Notes under the pieces: model-generated | What the model saw: only the letters and a program-made list of their open reading frames with translations | The model's database searches: none | What the model was told of the DNA's origin: nothing | IMG/VR virus record: IMGVR_UViG_2537561933_000012 | Length of the DNA stretch: 26,813 bases | Direction: 5' to 3' (one strand) | Origin: a virus | Taxonomy: Duplodnaviria; Heunggongvirae; Uroviricota; Caudoviricetes | Made by a program: the position numbers and the translations under genes | Shown: positions 1 to 22,062 of the stretch, piece after piece | Position numbering within the stretch: the stretch's first letter is position 1 | Layout: each line of letters opens with the position of its first letter

Positions 1-267
1 TTACTCTGCAGGTGAAGTCGGCCACTCAATATCAGGTGCGGTTGATGTATCAACACGGTTCAGCAACACCCGATACTTCTTCCAGGCTTCCAGCAACGAG
101 TTTTCTTCCTCCGTTGCGATCTCCAGATCTACAGCATCCTGAAGTGGCGCAATATGCTCACTGAATTCCTGGATGTAGAACTGTGTGGTGACGGTCTTCC
201 AGCCATTCGGCTCCTGCTGTATCGAAGCATACCAGGCTATTTCAATATCGCTATGCTGCGGCAGCAT
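1..267 (-). pseudogene. Tail fibre assembly protein (Tfa), C-terminal fragment, 88 aa ORF
   Basis: Translation ends ...[32 protein letters not shown], matching the recalled C-terminus of lambda Tfa; far too short for a full Tfa (~190 aa). Confidence 0.6.
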
Positions 268-6488: not shown

Positions 6489-6854
6489 TTACTCAGTAAC
6501 GACCGCGCCTTCCGGTAATTTCATACCGGCAAATACCGGCAGCCCGGGGATCGTTATCTGCAGCTGGTTAGCCAGGGAGTTAATCTCAGCGACCAACACT
6601 GGCTTCGTATAGCGCCATGCCGCCAGCCCTTGTCCACAGAAGCTCGCCATATCTTTTTTCTGATCAAACTCATGACACTTCATATTGAGCTGCGCACTTA
6701 AGCTGTTGCGATGCTGAAGTTCTCCGGTGAAGTAGTCATCCAGGACTTTATAGGCTGCATATTTAAATCCGGGGTTTAGCCATGCTGCATAATCATAAGC
6801 AACAAACTTCCCGCCATATGTTCCACCGTGTACACCGCGCTCAGTAAAAACCAC
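6489..6854 (-). CDS. Hypothetical phage protein between Rz and cos (position of ybcV/ydfO-type genes), 121 aa from a GTG start
   Basis: ORF with protein-like composition; family not recognised. Confidence 0.4.
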   Translation of the reverse strand: MVFTERGVHGGTYGGKFVAYDYAAWLNPGFKYAAYKVLDDYFTGELQHRNSLSAQLNMKCHEFDQKKDMASFCGQGLAAWRYTKPVLVAEINSLANQLQITIPGLPVFAGMKLPEGAVVTE

Positions 6855-6875
6855 AGATTCGTGTTTTTTCTCCAG

Positions 6876-7343
6876 CTACTTAATGCGCTGGGTGCGGATA
6901 TATTCCTGCGCCCCTTCCAGTTGCTTCTGCATCGTCATCAACCGTTCTCTGAGGGTGAAATAATCCCGTTCAGCGGTGTCTGCCAGTCGGGGGCTGGTTG
7001 CATTATCCATGCTGGTGGGTCCGGTGGCTTCACGCACGGCTGCGGAGCAACTGGCATTGACCCGCAGGCGCTTACGACCAGCGGCAACATCAGCGCGCAG
7101 AGTTTCATTTTCAGTTTTCGCATCGGCTAACTCCTTCGTGTATTTTGCATCGATCGCAGCAACATCACGCTGACGCTGCTGCATGTCAGCGATGGTGGCG
7201 GTCGCCTGCTTCAGCTCACTGACTTTTTTATCACGCTGTTCTTTGTAGGCGATGGCGTTATCACGGTAATGATTCAGCCCCAGACTAAGCACAACACAGG
7301 CCACCAGCAGCATAGCAATCACTACATACAGAACACGGTTCAT
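6876..7343 (-). CDS. i-spanin Rz
   Basis: Starts MNRVLYVVIAMLLVAC... with N-terminal TM segment; ...RLADTAERDYFTLRERL... as in lambda Rz; the track ORF begins at an upstream GTG, ATG at 7343 preferred. Confidence 0.85.
   Translation of the reverse strand: MNRVLYVVIAMLLVACVVLSLGLNHYRDNAIAYKEQRDKKVSELKQATATIADMQQRQRDVAAIDAKYTKELADAKTENETLRADVAAGRKRLRVNASCSAAVREATGPTSMDNATSPRLADTAERDYFTLRERLMTMQKQLEGAQEYIRTQRIK
6938..7123 (-). CDS. o-spanin Rz1 (lipoprotein), embedded in Rz in the +1 frame
   Basis: MRKLKMKLCALMLPLVVSAC lipobox, proline-rich PPDPPAWIMQP; fully nested within Rz. Confidence 0.85.
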   Translation of the reverse strand: MRKLKMKLCALMLPLVVSACGSMPVAPQPCVKPPDPPAWIMQPAPDWQTPLNGIISPSENG

Positions 7344-7344
7344 A

Positions 7345-7518
7345 TCACCACCAACGGATTGCCCAGACCAGAACAGCGACCGCCACAAGGCGAATTGCAA
7401 AGGCCGTTGCCCGAATAAAATCAGCACTCATCTGTTTAAATAAATTGTTGTGTATGCAACCAGTGCAGTACAAATAATCCATGCAACTGGCGTCAGTATA
7501 TGTCTGATGCCCCGGCAT
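7345..7518 (-). CDS. Small ORF, 57 aa, C-terminal hydrophobic segment
   Basis: MPGHQ...FIRATAFAIRLVAVAVLVWAIRWW, stop 2 nt before the Rz ATG; below the ORF-track size cutoff. Confidence 0.25.
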   Translation of the reverse strand: MPGHQTYTDASCMDYLYCTGCIHNNLFKQMSADFIRATAFAIRLVAVAVLVWAIRWW

Positions 7519-7611
7519 ACCGCGATGATTTTTGCGGCATCGTCAGCACCCTGCGAAGTTGTTTCTGCTTTTATCATCAGTTGCCATGTCCCTCATGACA
7601 CCCATCACCAC

Positions 7612-7755
7612 TCACGATTTCAGAGCAACAATCAATTTTGCCAGCCCATACAGCATCGGAGACACGGCGATGCCAACCGCCACCCACTTAATGGCAAAAG
7701 CCACCGCCCGGATAAGGCAGAGATTCGCCGTATTTTCTGTCTTATCTACAAACAT
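7612..7755 (-). CDS. Small ORF, 47 aa, predicted TM peptide
   Basis: MFVDKTENTANLCLIRAVAFAIKWVAVGIAVSPMLYGLAKLIVALKS; hydrophobic core related to that of the 57 aa ORF. Confidence 0.25.
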   Translation of the reverse strand: MFVDKTENTANLCLIRAVAFAIKWVAVGIAVSPMLYGLAKLIVALKS

Positions 7756-7846
7756 ATGCTATCGCTGCAACCGCAAAACCAATTGCCCCGATCATTGCCG
7801 ATAATGCAAGAATAATTCCGGCAATATTTGCTGCTTTAGGTGTCAT
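7742..7846 (-). CDS. Small ORF, 34 aa, predicted TM peptide
   Basis: MTPKAANIAGIILALSAMIGAIGFAVAAIAYVCR; AGGGTG Shine-Dalgarno-like sequence 4 nt upstream of the ATG. Confidence 0.3.
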   Translation of the reverse strand: MTPKAANIAGIILALSAMIGAIGFAVAAIAYVCR

Positions 7847-7926
7847 ACTGCACCCTATACTCAGAAAGGTTTTATTGTTATCCTTTACCTGCATGAATTA
7901 TATCCATGTCTGATTTGTCAAAATGC

Positions 7927-7966
7927 AACCCCGGACTGTTCCCCCAGCCGGGGTTTTACTTTTATT
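7927..7966 (+). terminator. Rho-independent terminator-like hairpin, stronger on the plus strand
   Basis: AACCCCGG...CCGGGGTT stem followed by TTTTACTTTTATT; no plus-strand protein gene upstream. Confidence 0.35.
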
Positions 7967-8045
7967 CACTTACCTTTTGCCAGTTTGCAGGATTTCGTGT
8001 TATCCGCTCGCGGGAGCACACGCCATTTTTCAGCAAAATATTCTG

Positions 8046-8579
8046 CTAGCTGTCGATACCCCAGCACACCAGTGCCGCTTCCTGGTCACGGCGAATAACC
8101 TGTCCATAGCAGTTATTTGAACGTATGCGGCAATCGCGTCCACCATCTTTTATCCACCAGCGAATCGCCTCGCATGCACCCTTACGATCACCGGCATTCA
8201 GCCGCTTATAAAACGTCGACGGGAAACACTTACCGGGGCCAATGTTATAGGGACAAAATGACGCTATACCCGCTTTCTGGGGTTCGCTCAATGGCACTTT
8301 GATGTTTTTCTCCACCCATGCCAGCGCCTTATCACGCTCAATGGCGTTAACCTGGTCGCATTCTTCCTTCGACAGCTTCATTCCCGGTATGACGGGCTTA
8401 CCATCCACCATTGTGGCACCACGACAGATGGTCCATATACCGGAACCATCGCGGTATGCCGTAGTGTGGTTACCCTCTTTTTCATCCAGAAACTGGTCAA
8501 GTATTTGAGGAGCAGACGCGCCTGCAGCAATCAGCGCCAGAACAGCAGCTGACAGGCCGTATTTGATTTTTGCGCTCAT
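8046..8579 (-). CDS. SAR endolysin, T4-lysozyme-like (GH24), 177 aa
   Basis: N-terminal G/A-rich hydrophobic SAR-like segment GLSAAVLALIAAGASA; E...D...T catalytic spacing in EGNHTTAYRDGSGIWTICRG. Confidence 0.9.
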   Translation of the reverse strand: MSAKIKYGLSAAVLALIAAGASAPQILDQFLDEKEGNHTTAYRDGSGIWTICRGATMVDGKPVIPGMKLSKEECDQVNAIERDKALAWVEKNIKVPLSEPQKAGIASFCPYNIGPGKCFPSTFYKRLNAGDRKGACEAIRWWIKDGGRDCRIRSNNCYGQVIRRDQEAALVCWGIDS

Positions 8580-8634
8580 GGATATTTATCAGGATGCTAC
8601 CAATGAAAGATACTGGAAAGCCAACTGCAAAAAG

Positions 8635-8949
8635 CTAACAACCCGTAATCGAGTTATCAGAACTGTTAATTTTTATGGTATACCGCGCCTCTGAACAGGG
8701 GCGCGTTTCTGGCAACAGCTCGTCCCCTTCACATAACCCGGCAGCAACATCCAGGAAGACCTGTCTGATGCTCCTTCTGGCTGCTGCCTCATAAAACTCC
8801 AGCGCTGCACCTTCAACACGGTCCAGCGAGATGTCCAGGTCAAAAATTTCACCGTCAAAGCGTTTTTTGTCCCGTAACGCTAAAGTTACCGTAACTTTAT
8901 TCTCAAAATTGCGGATCCCTTTCACAATCAGTTCATAGTTTTGAGTCAT
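8635..8949 (-). CDS. Small phage protein between holin and endolysin (YdfR-like position), 104 aa
   Basis: ORF in the position ydfR occupies between essQ and rrrQ in Qin (recalled). Confidence 0.5.
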   Translation of the reverse strand: MTQNYELIVKGIRNFENKVTVTLALRDKKRFDGEIFDLDISLDRVEGAALEFYEAAARRSIRQVFLDVAAGLCEGDELLPETRPCSEARYTIKINSSDNSITGC

Positions 8950-8953
8950 TGAA

Positions 8954-9169
8954 TTACTCTCCCCGTGCAGCCTTACGCTTGTCTTCTCTGATTTTGAAGT
9001 ACAGATTTGTCAGATAAGTCAGGAAGCCCAGAACCAGACTCCCCAGTACACCAATCGCAGCCCACTGTGACGGACTGCCCTGATCAAGCCACTGTAAAAA
9101 CCAGTAGCCAGCACTGCCTGCGGAGGTGCCATAGGCAATGCCCGTTGAAATTTTGTCCATGGATTTCAT
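8954..9169 (-). CDS. Pinholin, S21 family, 71 aa with dual-start motif
   Basis: [29 protein letters not shown]... near-identical to recalled phage 21 S; Met1 and Met4 give the antiholin/holin pair. Confidence 0.85.
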
Positions 9170-9229
9170 AGCCTCACCTCCGCAAATAACGGATGGCGTA
9201 GTTTTACACTGAGAAATGAAAGGGATTTG

Positions 9230-9254
9230 AAAAGAAAAGCCCGCAAAAGCGGGC
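9230..9254 (-). terminator. Terminator-like hairpin between tRNA array and holin
   Basis: GCCCGC-AAAA-GCGGGC stem-loop followed on the minus strand by TTTTCTTT. Confidence 0.3.
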
Positions 9255-9329
9255 GAAACAATATATACAGTAAGGAAAGCACTCTATCCAACAAACCACC
9301 CACAGTTAATCGGAATAAAAGCAGAGTGC

Positions 9330-9402
9330 TTATGAATGATCGCCTGCCCGAAGGTTAGTATTTCTGCACAGCAATTTTGCAAAAAAAGGCGATCATTCAT
9401 AA
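9330..9402. repeat. 15 bp perfect inverted repeat (TTATGAATGATCGCC / GGCGATCATTCATAA) with 43 nt spacer
   Basis: Read directly from sequence; lies in the late transcript leader between the tRNAs and the holin. Confidence 0.6.
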
Positions 9403-9461: not shown

Positions 9462-9536
<75 letters not shown>

Positions 9537-9539
9537 ATA

Positions 9540-9615
<76 letters not shown>

Positions 9616-9617
9616 AC

Positions 9618-9694
9618 TGGACCGCCACCGGGGACTCGAACCTCGCACACTCAACTTAAAGAGTTGACGCTCTTTCCTGATGAGCTAGTGGCGG
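9618..9694 (-). tRNA. tRNA of uncertain identity (anticodon positions read UUU, Lys-like, but loop is UCUUUAA with C at position 33)
   Basis: Acceptor CCGCCAC/GTGGCGG, T-loop TTCGAGT, CCA encoded; non-canonical anticodon loop and one A-C mismatch in the T-stem. Confidence 0.5.
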
Positions 9695-9695
9695 T

Positions 9696-9771
9696 TGGTG
9701 GCCCTTGCTGGATTTGAACCAGCGACCTGGCGATTATGAGTCGCTCGCTCTCACCACTGAGCTAAAGGGCC
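9696..9771 (-). tRNA. tRNA-Ile2 (anticodon CAU, ileX/ileZ-like)
   Basis: GGCCCTTTAGCTCAGTGGT...CTCATAA...GGTTCAAATCC...AAGGGCCACCA, close to recalled E. coli ileX. Confidence 0.8.
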
Positions 9772-22004: not shown

Positions 22005-22062
22005 TTTCTGGTGGCGTTTAGCGGTATCAGTTTTACTCCGTGACTGCTCTGCCGCCCTTTTT
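22005..22062 (+). ncRNA. dicF: DicF small RNA with intrinsic terminator
   Basis: TTTCTGGTGGCGTTTAGCGGTATCAGTTTTACTCCGTGACTGCTCTGCCGCCCTTTTT, two mismatches to the recalled K-12 DicF; upstream of dicB. Confidence 0.75.

What the first reader, a model, noticed from the sequence alone, without database searches (positions are those of the whole stretch)
7345..7966. A ~600 bp insert between endolysin and Rz with tandem small hydrophobic ORFs and an antisense-oriented terminator
Endolysin and Rz are normally adjacent or overlapping. Here they are separated by ~600 bp holding three small minus-strand ORFs (34, 47 and 57 aa) with TM-like segments; two share a related motif (RAVAFAIKWVAVGIAV versus RATAFAIRLVAVAVLV), suggesting duplication. 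Upstream of the first ORF is a strong hairpin with a T-run on the plus strand (7927-7966), positioned to terminate an antisense RNA over the leader. This layout resembles type I toxin-antitoxin loci (hok/sok-like), or the peptides could be lysis modulators; alternatively the region is a decayed membrane-protein gene.
Basis: partly seen in the sequence, partly recalled or inferred. Interest (0 to 1): 0.55.

Follow-up and report, generated by a model that had tools for sequence, protein, structure and literature searches.

The report
Small membrane-protein genes inside phage lysis operon
The stretch between the endolysin and Rz genes of this E. coli prophage carries four real, conserved genes for tiny single-helix membrane proteins, preceded by a conserved terminator hairpin; it is a common, uncharacterised add-on to phage late operons and shows none of the tested hallmarks of a toxin-antitoxin locus or of a broken gene.

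Summary
About 700 bp separate the lysozyme gene (8579..8046, minus strand) from Rz (7343..6876). The interval holds small hydrophobic ORFs and a strong hairpin at 7927-7955.

There are four genes, not three:
- orfA: 7894/7846..7742, 50 or 34 aa.
- orfB: 7755..7612, 47 aa.
- orfD: 7431..7345, 28 aa.

orfB, orfC and orfD are under purifying selection (pN/pS 0.18, 0.10, 0.30). orfB and orfD are paralogs. The orfB core occurs in 29% of complete E. coli genomes, always labelled hypothetical.

orfB relatives sit between endolysin and Rz, or a 60-aa lipoprotein, next to three unrelated endolysin types. orfA and orfC relatives also occur among tail genes. They therefore look like portable cassettes.

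The hairpin is conserved with compensatory changes. In most relatives its better U-tract is on the sense strand.

No antisense promoter, known type I toxin family, Rfam family or longer parent gene was found.

Best reading: late-operon accessory inner-membrane peptides, read through the terminator under Q and translationally coupled to Rz. Their function is unknown. Interest is moderate.

The parts
8046..8579 (-). Lysozyme gene (R21-like, annotated rrrQ/lysozyme). It forms the upstream border of the slot.
   Evidence: PF00959, E = 1e-24. RefSeq annotation as lysozyme.
7927..7966 (.). Conserved intrinsic-terminator-like hairpin. The stem is AACCCCGG/CUG...CAG/CCGGGGUU at 7927-7955, with an A-tract on one side and a U-tract on the other. 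Plus-strand tail: UUUUACUUUUAUU. Sense (minus-strand) tail: UUGCAUUUUG.
   Evidence: Fold energy and z-scores. Present in every related locus in three sequence types, with 92% of cells paired, 2 pairs changed on both sides, and 0 of 500 shuffles reaching the covariation score. Scored as a sense-strand terminator in L027.
7742..7894 (-). orfA: 50 aa from the ATG at 7894, or 34 aa from the ATG at 7846 (MTPKAANIAGIILALSAMIGAIGFAVAAIAYVCR). It has one Gly/Ala-rich transmembrane helix.
   Evidence: phrog_12997, E = 5e-7. Five protein clusters in E. coli and Citrobacter, invariant from M17 onward. Relatives carry a GGGGG Shine-Dalgarno before the internal ATG. Sometimes annotated as WP_001197231.1. 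DNA variation is too low for a selection test.
7612..7755 (-). orfB: 47 aa, a single-helix membrane protein. The conserved core is RAVAFAIKWVAVGIAVSPMLYGLAKLIVALKS. Its start overlaps the end of orfA by 14 nt.
   Evidence: phrog_1115, E = 4e-19. 88 protein clusters. pN/pS 0.18, the lowest of six frames. AF2 model is one helix, pLDDT 85. Core present in 1587 of 5426 E. coli genomes. Annotated as WP_000496062.1.
7428..7577 (-). orfC: 49 aa, with a conserved N-terminal part (KAETT.QGAD.AAKIIAVCRGIRH) and a C-terminal transmembrane helix.
   Evidence: 29 protein clusters in E. coli and Salmonella, 65-98% identical. pN/pS 0.10, variable columns 13/8/41 by codon position. Best of six frames. Shine-Dalgarno pairing -6.1 kcal/mol. 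AF2 model is one helix, pLDDT 80.
7345..7431 (-). orfD: 28 aa (MSADFIRATAFAIRLVAVAVLVWAIRWW), a paralog of orfB of the '...IRWW' subtype. Its start overlaps the orfC stop (ATGA). Its last codons carry the Rz ribosome-binding site (GGTGGTGAtATG).
   Evidence: Same PHROGs as orfB. BLASTP against orfB, E = 1e-4. pN/pS 0.30. Subfamily members P0134 and P0136. Annotated as WP_085950722.1.
6876..7343 (-). Rz (i-spanin), with Rz1 (o-spanin lipoprotein) embedded at 7123..6938. It forms the downstream border and is translationally coupled to orfD.
   Evidence: PF03245, E = 7.5e-50. Rz1 ORF with lipobox VVSAC. Shine-Dalgarno pairing -6.2 kcal/mol lying inside orfD.

Best explanation
The interval is a modular, moron-like insertion in the late (lysis) operon of an E. 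coli lambdoid prophage; the identical copies are in human-stool and other E. coli isolates, which I recognise from memory as mostly enterotoxigenic strains. It carries four genuine genes for single-helix inner-membrane peptides from three families: orfA, the paralogs orfB and orfD, and orfC.

Shown:
- orfB, orfC and orfD are under purifying selection in their annotated frames.
- All four lie on the same strand as holin, lysozyme and Rz.
- They are chained by overlapping or abutting stop and start codons: orfA-orfB, and orfC-orfD-Rz.
- A structurally conserved terminator hairpin always precedes such cassettes.
- No promoter-like site lies between the hairpin and the ORFs.

Inferred:
- They are transcribed only as part of the Q-antiterminated late transcript, which reads through the hairpin. 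They are therefore silent in the lysogen and made together with holin, endolysin and spanin.
- Rz translation is coupled to orfD.
- The peptides insert in the inner membrane at the time of lysis. There they act as dispensable accessory factors, most likely tuning membrane integrity or lysis timing, rather than as core lysis proteins.

The cassettes are exchanged between phages at conserved borders: the hairpin and leader on the 5' side, and the GGTGGTGA-T-ATG linker on the 3' side.
For: Coding:
- pN/pS is 0.18, 0.10 and 0.30 for orfB, orfC and orfD, and the annotated frame is the best of six.
- Family alignments have conserved starts and ends.
- PHROG membership.

Membrane character:
- Hydropathy.
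- Single-helix AF2 models.

Operon membership:
- The layout Q, tRNAs, holin, DUF1327, lysozyme, small ORFs, Rz, terminase is all on one strand.
- ATGA and TGAtATG junctions are visible in the sequence.
- No promoter-like site on either strand, and none on the sense strand in relatives.

Association with lysis genes:
- 75 of 80 orfB-family loci have an endolysin upstream and Rz or a 60-aa lipoprotein downstream.
- This holds across three unrelated endolysin folds (PF00959, GH108, Peptidase_M15_4) and unrelated holins.

Slot variability:
- The slot is empty in K-12 Qin.
- It holds Ant in an Stx2a phage and in PhiR5_1.

Hairpin:
- Conserved, with compensatory changes.

Precedents for small accessory transmembrane lysis proteins:
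- Lcc6 (bioRxiv 10.1101/2024.01.23.576932).
- Mu releasin (PMC9239132).
- P1 LydC/LydD (PMC9025707).
Against: - No expression data of any kind were available.
- Shine-Dalgarno sequences of orfA, orfB and orfD are weak. The lysozyme's is too.
- orfA coding cannot be tested from DNA variation.
- orfA and orfC relatives also sit between tail-module genes and at a prophage end. A lysis-specific role therefore cannot hold for those two families.
- phiP27 has the lipoprotein-type cassette without any of these ORFs. They are dispensable there.
- A terminator inside an operon is odd unless antitermination is assumed.
- No homology to any characterised accessory lysis protein.
Confidence: 0.55

Rival explanations
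1. Lysogen-expressed moron. The peptides are made from the repressed prophage, from an unrecognised promoter downstream of the hairpin, and serve the host or prophage. Possible roles are superinfection exclusion, membrane stress tolerance or colonisation.
For: - The cassettes are portable and appear at classic moron sites: after a tail-fibre assembly gene at a prophage end in L148, in the tail module in L117 and L149, and in the R-Rz slot that elsewhere holds Ant.
- A terminator flanks each cassette, as in morons.
- The window has a perfect TATAAT (7902-7897) and a TTGACA (7921-7916) after the hairpin.
Against: - The two hexamers are 13 nt apart, and the arrangement is not conserved in L020, L148 or L149.
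- The consensus scan finds no sense-strand promoter in the window or in three relatives.
- The terminator lies upstream of the ORFs, not downstream.
- The ORFs are translationally coupled to Rz, which must stay silent in a lysogen.
Confidence: 0.2
2. Type I toxin-antitoxin or antisense-controlled toxin. A plus-strand small RNA ending at the hairpin's T-run (7954-7966) represses translation of orfA or another peptide, which is a membrane toxin.
For: - The peptides have the size and hydrophobicity of type I toxins.
- The hairpin is followed by UUUUACUUUUAUU on the plus strand.
- In relatives carrying the 60-aa orfB form, an antisense promoter-like site (TAGTCA-18-TATACT; my reading of the L023 sequence gives TATAAT) would produce an RNA of about 65 nt across the ribosome-binding site, ending at the hairpin.
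- HokW-sokW shows that a prophage type I toxin can aid lysis (PMC8621323).
Against: - No plus-strand promoter in the window. The best candidate, TTGTTA-18-TATATC, is 8 of 12 by my own reading and would give an RNA that contains only the hairpin.
- The antisense site in relatives occurs at chance frequency (1 found against 1.0 expected), and that leader is absent from the window.
- No Hok, Ldr, Ibs, TisB or similar family match, and no Rfam match.
- No fold-back-rich mRNA.
- Outside the R21-type context the antisense U-tract is poor while the sense U-tract is kept.
- The ORFs are embedded in and coupled to the late operon.
Confidence: 0.08
3. Translational leader only. The small ORFs matter chiefly because their translation delivers ribosomes to Rz (or to the lipoprotein gene), and the peptide sequences are incidental.
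For: - The Rz ribosome-binding site lies inside the last codons of orfD.
- The same GGTGGTGA-T-ATG linker joins different small ORFs to Rz, to the lipoprotein and to a 115-aa tail-module gene.
Against: - Amino-acid sequences are under purifying selection, at a level like the lysozyme for orfC.
- Four ORFs are far more than coupling needs.
- In Qin, Rz is coupled directly to the lysozyme gene.
Confidence: 0.05
4. Decayed remnant of one larger membrane-protein gene, or non-coding filler whose ORFs arise by chance. This includes the long plus-strand ORF at 7450-7815.
For: - Several hydrophobic ORFs lie in different frames.
- Long antisense stop-free runs of up to 126 codons occur in several relatives.
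Against: - No homolog longer than 96 aa was seen among the protein hits or the ORFs read in related loci.
- The families recombine independently with intact frames.
- The sense frames have the lowest pN/pS of all six frames, and the plus-strand ORF frames do worse.
- L117 keeps orfC although its longest antisense run is only 58 codons.
Confidence: 0.03

Closest known systems
Lcc6 of Shewanella prophage LambdaSo (bioRxiv 10.1101/2024.01.23.576932)
   Same: A very small (65 aa) single-transmembrane phage protein of previously unknown function, in a lambda-like phage with a pinholin, a SAR endolysin and Rz/Rz1. It shows that small transmembrane proteins can be extra lysis factors.
   Different: Lcc6 is encoded far from the lysis genes, near xis. 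It has an N-terminal transmembrane segment with a 43-aa cytoplasmic tail, and it is essential for lysis. No sequence relationship was tested or is apparent. The window's peptides are optional across related phages.
Phage Mu releasin gp25 (DUF2730) and P1 LydC/LydD (PMC9239132, PMC9025707)
   Same: Accessory membrane proteins encoded alongside SAR endolysins that modulate endolysin release or lysis timing.
   Different: No DUF2730 or holin-family match for any of the four peptides. The orfB family also accompanies non-SAR endolysins (GH108, Peptidase_M15_4), so it is not SAR-specific.
Lambdoid morons, for example bor, and the Ant gene in the R-Rz slot of Stx2a phages
   Same: Extra genes inserted between two late genes that are adjacent in other phages, bounded by a factor-independent terminator. 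The very same R-Rz slot holds Ant in Stx2a_F723 and PhiR5_1.
   Different: No recognisable promoter of their own. The terminator is upstream rather than downstream. The ORFs are translationally coupled to the next late gene.
hok/sok-type type I toxin-antitoxin loci, for example hokW-sokW of Sp5 (PMC8621323)
   Same: Hydrophobic peptides of 60 aa or fewer encoded in a lambdoid prophage, with a nearby hairpin that could end an antisense RNA.
   Different: No Hok-family match, no antisense promoter, no stand-alone transcription unit and no fold-back mRNA.
PHROG families 1115, 3246 and 4493 (orfB, orfD) and 12997 (orfA)
   Same: Direct sequence membership.
   Different: All are annotated 'unknown function'. 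orfC matches no PHROG at a meaningful E-value.

Membership tests
Type I toxin-antitoxin (hok/sok-like) | Toxin belongs to a known type I toxin family (Hok/Gef, Ldr, Ibs, TisB, ShoB and others) | tested here: not met
   No Pfam or NCBIfam match at E <= 1 for any of the peptides.
Type I toxin-antitoxin (hok/sok-like) | Small hydrophobic membrane peptide under 60 aa | tested here: met
   28-50 aa. Kyte-Doolittle 17-residue maxima are 1.87-2.46. AF2 models are single helices.
Type I toxin-antitoxin (hok/sok-like) | Cis-encoded antisense RNA gene with its own promoter, overlapping the toxin's translation start | tested here: not met
   A hairpin with a plus-strand U-run exists. No promoter-like site was found on the plus strand and no Rfam family. 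This is a consensus scan only; an atypical promoter cannot be excluded without RNA data.
Type I toxin-antitoxin (hok/sok-like) | Autonomous toxin transcription unit with a stable, highly folded mRNA | tested here: not met
   The ORFs lie inside the late operon and are coupled to Rz. Folding z = 0.06 for 7340-7760. The z of -2.76 for 7742-7966 is, judging from the predicted structure, largely due to the hairpin.
Accessory phage lysis proteins (antiholin, releasin, Lcc6-type) | Membrane protein encoded in, and co-oriented with, the lysis cassette | tested here: met
   75 of 80 orfB-family loci lie between an endolysin and Rz or the lipoprotein.
Accessory phage lysis proteins (antiholin, releasin, Lcc6-type) | Homology to a characterised accessory lysis protein (DUF2730 releasin, LydB/C/D, RI and others) | tested here: not met
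   No Pfam match. The only PHROG 'holin' hit is orfA against phrog_526 at E = 0.036.
Accessory phage lysis proteins (antiholin, releasin, Lcc6-type) | Exclusive association with lysis genes | tested here: not met
   orfC and orfA relatives occur between tail-module genes and after a tail-fibre assembly gene. The orfB family was seen only in lysis cassettes among the 80 loci examined.
Accessory phage lysis proteins (antiholin, releasin, Lcc6-type) | Deletion or overexpression changes lysis timing or the release of endolysin | not testable with these tools
   Needs genetics in an inducible lysogen.
Moron (Juhala/Hendrix sense; definition recalled from memory, no paper read here) | Inserted between genes that are adjacent in related phages | tested here: met
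   rrrQ and rzpQ overlap in K-12 Qin. The slot contents vary between relatives: Ant, orfE, phrog_6632.
Moron (Juhala/Hendrix sense; definition recalled from memory, no paper read here) | Own promoter allowing expression from the repressed prophage | tested here: not met
   No sense-strand sigma-70-like site in the window or in L027, L028 or L117. Consensus scan only.
Moron (Juhala/Hendrix sense; definition recalled from memory, no paper read here) | Flanking factor-independent terminator | tested here: met
   Conserved hairpin with a U-tract, but positioned upstream of the ORFs. In L148 there is a hairpin on both sides.
PHROG 1115/3246/4493 and 12997 | Significant profile match | tested here: met
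   orfB E = 4e-19, 9e-15 and 2e-13. orfD E = 2e-6, 2e-5 and 0.017. orfA E = 5e-7 against phrog_12997.
Frameshifted remnant of a single known gene | A longer intact homolog collinear with the small ORFs | tested here: not met
   The longest relatives seen are 96 aa for orfB (an ORF in L023/L038; 87 aa among database proteins), 79 aa for orfC and 50 aa for orfA. The 83-aa forms are orfE-orfB fusions.

The most novel reading that the evidence does not exclude
The hairpin-led small transmembrane ORFs are a previously undescribed class of portable late-operon cassettes in enterobacterial temperate phages. Each has a conserved terminator hairpin and leader at its 5' end and a translational-coupling linker at its 3' end. 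The class comprises families orfA, orfB/orfD and orfC, plus orfE (phrog_4906) and phrog_6632 seen in relatives. On this reading the terminator makes them strictly antitermination-dependent, and the peptides tune the final membrane events of infection: lysis timing, collapse of membrane potential, or spanin or holin activity. In some variants a short antisense RNA ending at the same hairpin would add control.
Probability: 0.2. Interest if true: 0.6.

Novelty: new member of a known kind. Interest (0 to 1): 0.4.

Why it matters
About 29% of complete E. coli genomes, including O157:H7, O104:H4 and ST131 strains, carry at least one orfB-family gene in a prophage lysis cassette. No paper in the searched library names these proteins.

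Recent work on Lcc6 and on Mu releasin shows that holin, endolysin and spanin are not always the whole lysis machinery. These peptides are cheap to test as extra timing or membrane factors. In Stx-type and ETEC prophages, lysis timing affects phage release; by my own inference it would also affect toxin release.

For annotation, the case shows that one conserved 49-aa gene (orfC) is missed in the RefSeq records examined. It also shows that a tool-free ORF reading merged two genes into a false 57-aa ORF.

Tried and rejected
- **Known protein families.** Pfam, NCBIfam and PADLOC scans of the peptides found nothing.
- **Known RNA families.** Rfam at gathering threshold over the window, and at E <= 5 over 7200-8200, found nothing relevant in the interval.
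- **Phage records.** tblastn of orfA and orfC against 50,697 phage records gave no match. orfB matched only 12 records.
- **Species-representative genomes.** The GTDB peptide-pattern scan gave 64 pattern hits but no true relative. The degenerate DNA pattern hit only three Clostridia-type loci, which I take to be chance matches. The family appears to be absent from species-representative genomes.
- **Distant relatives.** A profile search of 1.84 billion representative proteins found only 17 clusters, all 87 aa or shorter, with no link to a larger family.
- **Literature.** Searches by accession, PHROG id and topic found no description of these genes. The Stx-phage lysis-cassette survey (PMC8136144) and the spanin census (PMC6139136) do not mention them in the passages I searched.
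- **Sense promoter after the hairpin.** TTGACA and TATAAT are present, but the spacer is 13 nt and the pair is not conserved.
- **i-spanin partner idea.** I considered that orfB and orfE might be i-spanin-like partners of the 60-aa lipoprotein in Rz-less cassettes. I rejected it as a requirement because phiP27 has the lipoprotein without them, and, by my own reasoning, their segments outside the membrane are too short to span the periplasm.
- **Plus-strand gene.** The 121-aa ORF at 7450-7815 is rejected by the six-frame pN/pS comparison and by its lack of conservation as a unit.
- **Other copies.** No further copy of the hairpin or of any of these families exists elsewhere in the window.
Full report
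**1. What is in the sequence**

All genes of this part of the window lie on the minus strand. In order they are:
- a class II holin (9169..8954);
- a DUF1327/YdfR gene (8949..8635);
- a PF00959 lysozyme (8579..8046);
- an interval of about 700 bp;
- Rz (PF03245, 7343..6876), with the Rz1 lipoprotein gene embedded (7123..6938);
- a truncated KilA-N/ORF11CD3 gene;
- the terminase genes.

The same 801 bp are 99-100% identical in 31 complete E. coli genomes; I recognise several of these strains from memory as enterotoxigenic E. coli. In one of them, RefSeq shows a Q antiterminator and four tRNA genes upstream of the holin. This is therefore the late operon of a lambdoid prophage.

In K-12 Qin the homologous lysozyme and Rz genes overlap by 4 nt with nothing between them. 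"Insert" is a fair description.

**2. The ORFs**

The interval holds four co-oriented small ORFs:

| ORF | Coordinates (minus strand) | Length | Note |
|---|---|---|---|
| orfA | 7894 or 7846..7742 | 50 or 34 aa | two possible starts |
| orfB | 7755..7612 | 47 aa | start overlaps the end of orfA by 14 nt |
| orfD | 7431..7345 | 28 aa | ATG overlaps the orfC stop (ATGA) |

The orfD stop lies one base before the Rz ATG (TGAtATG). The Rz ribosome-binding site (GGTGGTGA) lies inside the last codons of orfD.

In that overlap, 23 of 38 variable alignment columns are third positions of orfC and only 5 are third positions of the 57-aa frame.

**3. Are they genes?**

I used 147 related loci from IMG/VR and from phage and genome records. 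Against these, pN/pS relative to the window is:

| Region | pN/pS |
|---|---|
| orfB core | 0.18 |
| orfC | 0.10 |
| orfD | 0.30 |
| lysozyme | 0.11 |
| Rz | 0.46 |

- The annotated frame has the lowest pN/pS of all six frames for each of the three ORFs. This also disposes of the long plus-strand ORF at 7450-7815.
- orfA has only 5 variable DNA columns, so its coding status rests on other evidence. Protein relatives at 74-84% identity are invariant from Met17 on. There is a PHROG match. Relatives carry a GGGGG Shine-Dalgarno before the internal ATG.
- All four peptides have one strongly hydrophobic segment. AlphaFold models orfB and orfC as single long helices.
- orfB and orfD are paralogs: BLASTP E = 1e-4, and both match PHROGs 4493, 3246 and 1115. 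The short '...IRWW' form of orfD is a real subfamily.

**4. Distribution**

- The orfB family has 88 clusters at 90% identity. Nearly all named members are from E. coli or Salmonella, and all carry hypothetical or uncharacterised labels.
- A profile search of 1.84 billion representative proteins finds just 17 clusters, none longer than 87 aa.
- The orfB core DNA is nevertheless present in 1587 of 5426 complete E. coli genomes, including O157:H7, O104:H4 2011C-3493 and ST131 strains.
- orfC has 29 clusters in E. coli and Salmonella. It is not annotated in the three RefSeq E. coli records examined that carry it.
- orfA has 5 clusters, in E. coli and Citrobacter.
- None of the families is in K-12 Qin, and none was found in the GTDB species-representative genomes.

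**5. Genomic context of relatives**

Of 80 orfB-family viral loci, 75 have an endolysin gene upstream and Rz or a 60-aa lipoprotein (phrog_7528) downstream:

| Upstream endolysin | Downstream gene | Loci |
|---|---|---|
| R21-type lysozyme (PF00959) | Rz | 63 |
| GH108 + PG_binding_3 | lipoprotein | 8 |
| Peptidase_M15_4 | lipoprotein | 4 |

- The holins are unrelated between the two cassette groups: class II holin against Phage_holin_8 plus Phage_holin_3_7.
- The slot is variable. It can also hold a 44-aa transmembrane ORF (orfE, phrog_4906), a phrog_6632 transmembrane ORF, or an Ant antirepressor, as in Stx2a phages and PhiR5_1.
- orfC and orfA relatives are not confined to lysis cassettes. 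They also lie between a 237-aa and a 115-aa gene of a tail/baseplate module (L117, L127, L131, L149). They are also found next to a DUF4376 tail-fibre-assembly gene: upstream of DUF1353 in L122, and at a prophage end in L148.
- phiP27 has the M15/lipoprotein cassette without any of these ORFs. The peptides are therefore optional, portable accessories.

**6. The hairpin**

- The stem-loop at 7927-7955 is strong on both strands. It has an A-tract on one side and a U-tract on the other.
- A homologous hairpin precedes the small-ORF cassettes in every context examined. It occurs in three sequence types with compensatory differences: 92% of cells paired, two pairs changed on both sides, and 0 of 500 shuffles reaching the covariation score.
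- In most relatives the sense-strand tail is a good U-tract (UUUUGUGUUU, UUUUCUGUUU, UUUUUGUAUC). The antisense tail is good only in the R21-type context, and it is poor in L148 and L149. The window's sense tail (UUGCAUUUUG) is the weakest of the set.
- In L148 the hairpin follows the upstream gene's own terminator, and a second copy follows orfA. The hairpin therefore appears to belong to the cassette.
- The 3' border is also conserved. The linker GGTGGTGA-T-ATG joins different small ORFs to Rz, to the lipoprotein gene or to the 115-aa gene.

**7. Testing the type I toxin-antitoxin idea**

- No known toxin family matches, and no Rfam family.
- No sigma-70-like site on either strand of 6800-9400, against 2.8 expected by chance.
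- No excess RNA structure outside the hairpin.
- The best plus-strand candidate I could find by eye, TTGTTA-18-TATATC, is 8 of 12 and would give an RNA made of the hairpin alone.
- Relatives with the 60-aa orfB form have an antisense TAGTCA-18-TATACT site. It could give an antisense RNA of about 65 nt over the ribosome-binding site. That is a chance-level count, and that leader is absent from the window. I keep it as a lead only.

**8. Most likely mechanism**

Shown:
- four conserved small membrane-protein genes;
- the same strand as, and tight coupling with, the lysis genes;
- a conserved terminator hairpin in front;
- no promoter of their own by consensus scan.

Inferred:
- Expression occurs only from the Q-modified late transcript, which reads through the terminator. 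This rests on established lambda biology, recalled from memory. The peptides are then made together with holin, endolysin and spanin, and are silent in the lysogen.
- Rz translation is coupled through orfC and orfD.
- The peptides insert in the inner membrane and act as dispensable modulators of the late membrane events.

Lcc6, Mu releasin and P1 LydC/LydD are functional precedents, but there is no homology to them (bioRxiv 10.1101/2024.01.23.576932; PMC9239132; PMC9025707). The occurrence of orfA and orfC in tail modules argues that at least those two are general late-expressed membrane peptides rather than lysis-specific factors.

**9. Novelty and verdict**

- The genes are already in the databases as hypothetical proteins and unknown-function PHROGs. 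I found no publication that describes them.
- They are best filed as new, uncharacterised members of a known kind: small accessory, moron-like genes in phage late operons. Their cassette architecture is unusual, with the terminator first and a coupling linker last.
- The type I toxin-antitoxin reading is not supported, and the decayed-gene reading is refuted.
- Interest is moderate. The family is very common in pathogenic E. coli prophages and easy to test, but nothing here would strongly surprise a phage-lysis specialist.

Noticed in passing
window 8635-8949 (-): A DUF1327/YdfR-family gene (104 aa) sits between the holin and the lysozyme gene. It is another conserved lysis-cassette gene of unknown function (PF07041, E = 5e-39). 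In relatives it is variable or replaced.
   Followed up: no
L020, L023, L028, L105 and others; phiP27 NC_003356.1 20679-20858 (L150 2501-2680): Lysis cassettes with a GH108 or Peptidase_M15_4 endolysin and Phage_holin_8 plus Phage_holin_3_7 holins have no Rz/Rz1. They end with a 60-aa lipoprotein (phrog_7528, lipobox LLVGC, with a mature part of about 29 aa containing 3 Cys). In phiP27 this ORF is not annotated in its correct frame. It may be an unrecognised outer-membrane-disruption component.
   Followed up: partly
window 7987-8047 (-); L020 about 2848-2907: The roughly 60 nt immediately after the lysozyme stop (GCAGAATATTTTGCTGAAAAATG...) recur at 77-81% identity just after the lipoprotein gene in the GH108 and M15 cassettes. 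It could be a shared boundary or linker sequence for modular recombination.
   Followed up: no
L027 and L028 2424-2453 (antisense strand): A promoter-like site (TAGTCA-18-TATACT; my reading of the L023 sequence gives TATAAT) lies inside the 5' end of the 60-aa orfB-type gene. From it, an antisense RNA of about 65 nt would cover the ribosome-binding site and end at the hairpin. The count is at chance level, and the site is not present in the window.
   Followed up: partly
L148 590-1000: An orfA homolog at a prophage end is flanked by homologous hairpins on both sides. It is preceded by the upstream gene's own terminator, giving two terminators in tandem.
   Followed up: partly
window 7450-7815 (+): A 121-aa plus-strand ORF runs antisense to orfC, orfB and part of orfA. 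Similar stop-free antisense runs of 100-126 codons exist in several relatives. The six-frame pN/pS comparison favours the minus-strand genes. It is probably a by-product of hydrophobic codon usage.
   Followed up: yes
window 9465-9771 (-) and 9239-9254 (-): Four tRNA genes lie between Q and the holin. In the identical RefSeq locus they are annotated Ile, Lys, Thr and Gly. A strong terminator-like hairpin (GCCCGCTTTTGCGGGC followed by a T-run) follows them, just upstream of the holin.
   Followed up: no
window 22006-22057 (+) and 41-244 (-): A DicF small RNA (68.6 bits) and an IS009 RNA (129.2 bits) match Rfam at gathering threshold elsewhere in the window.
   Followed up: no
window 6489-6854 (-): The 121-aa ORF downstream of Rz matches only the C-terminal end of KilA-N plus an ORF11CD3 domain. 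It looks like a truncated antirepressor-type gene, and RefSeq calls it a DNA-binding protein.
   Followed up: no
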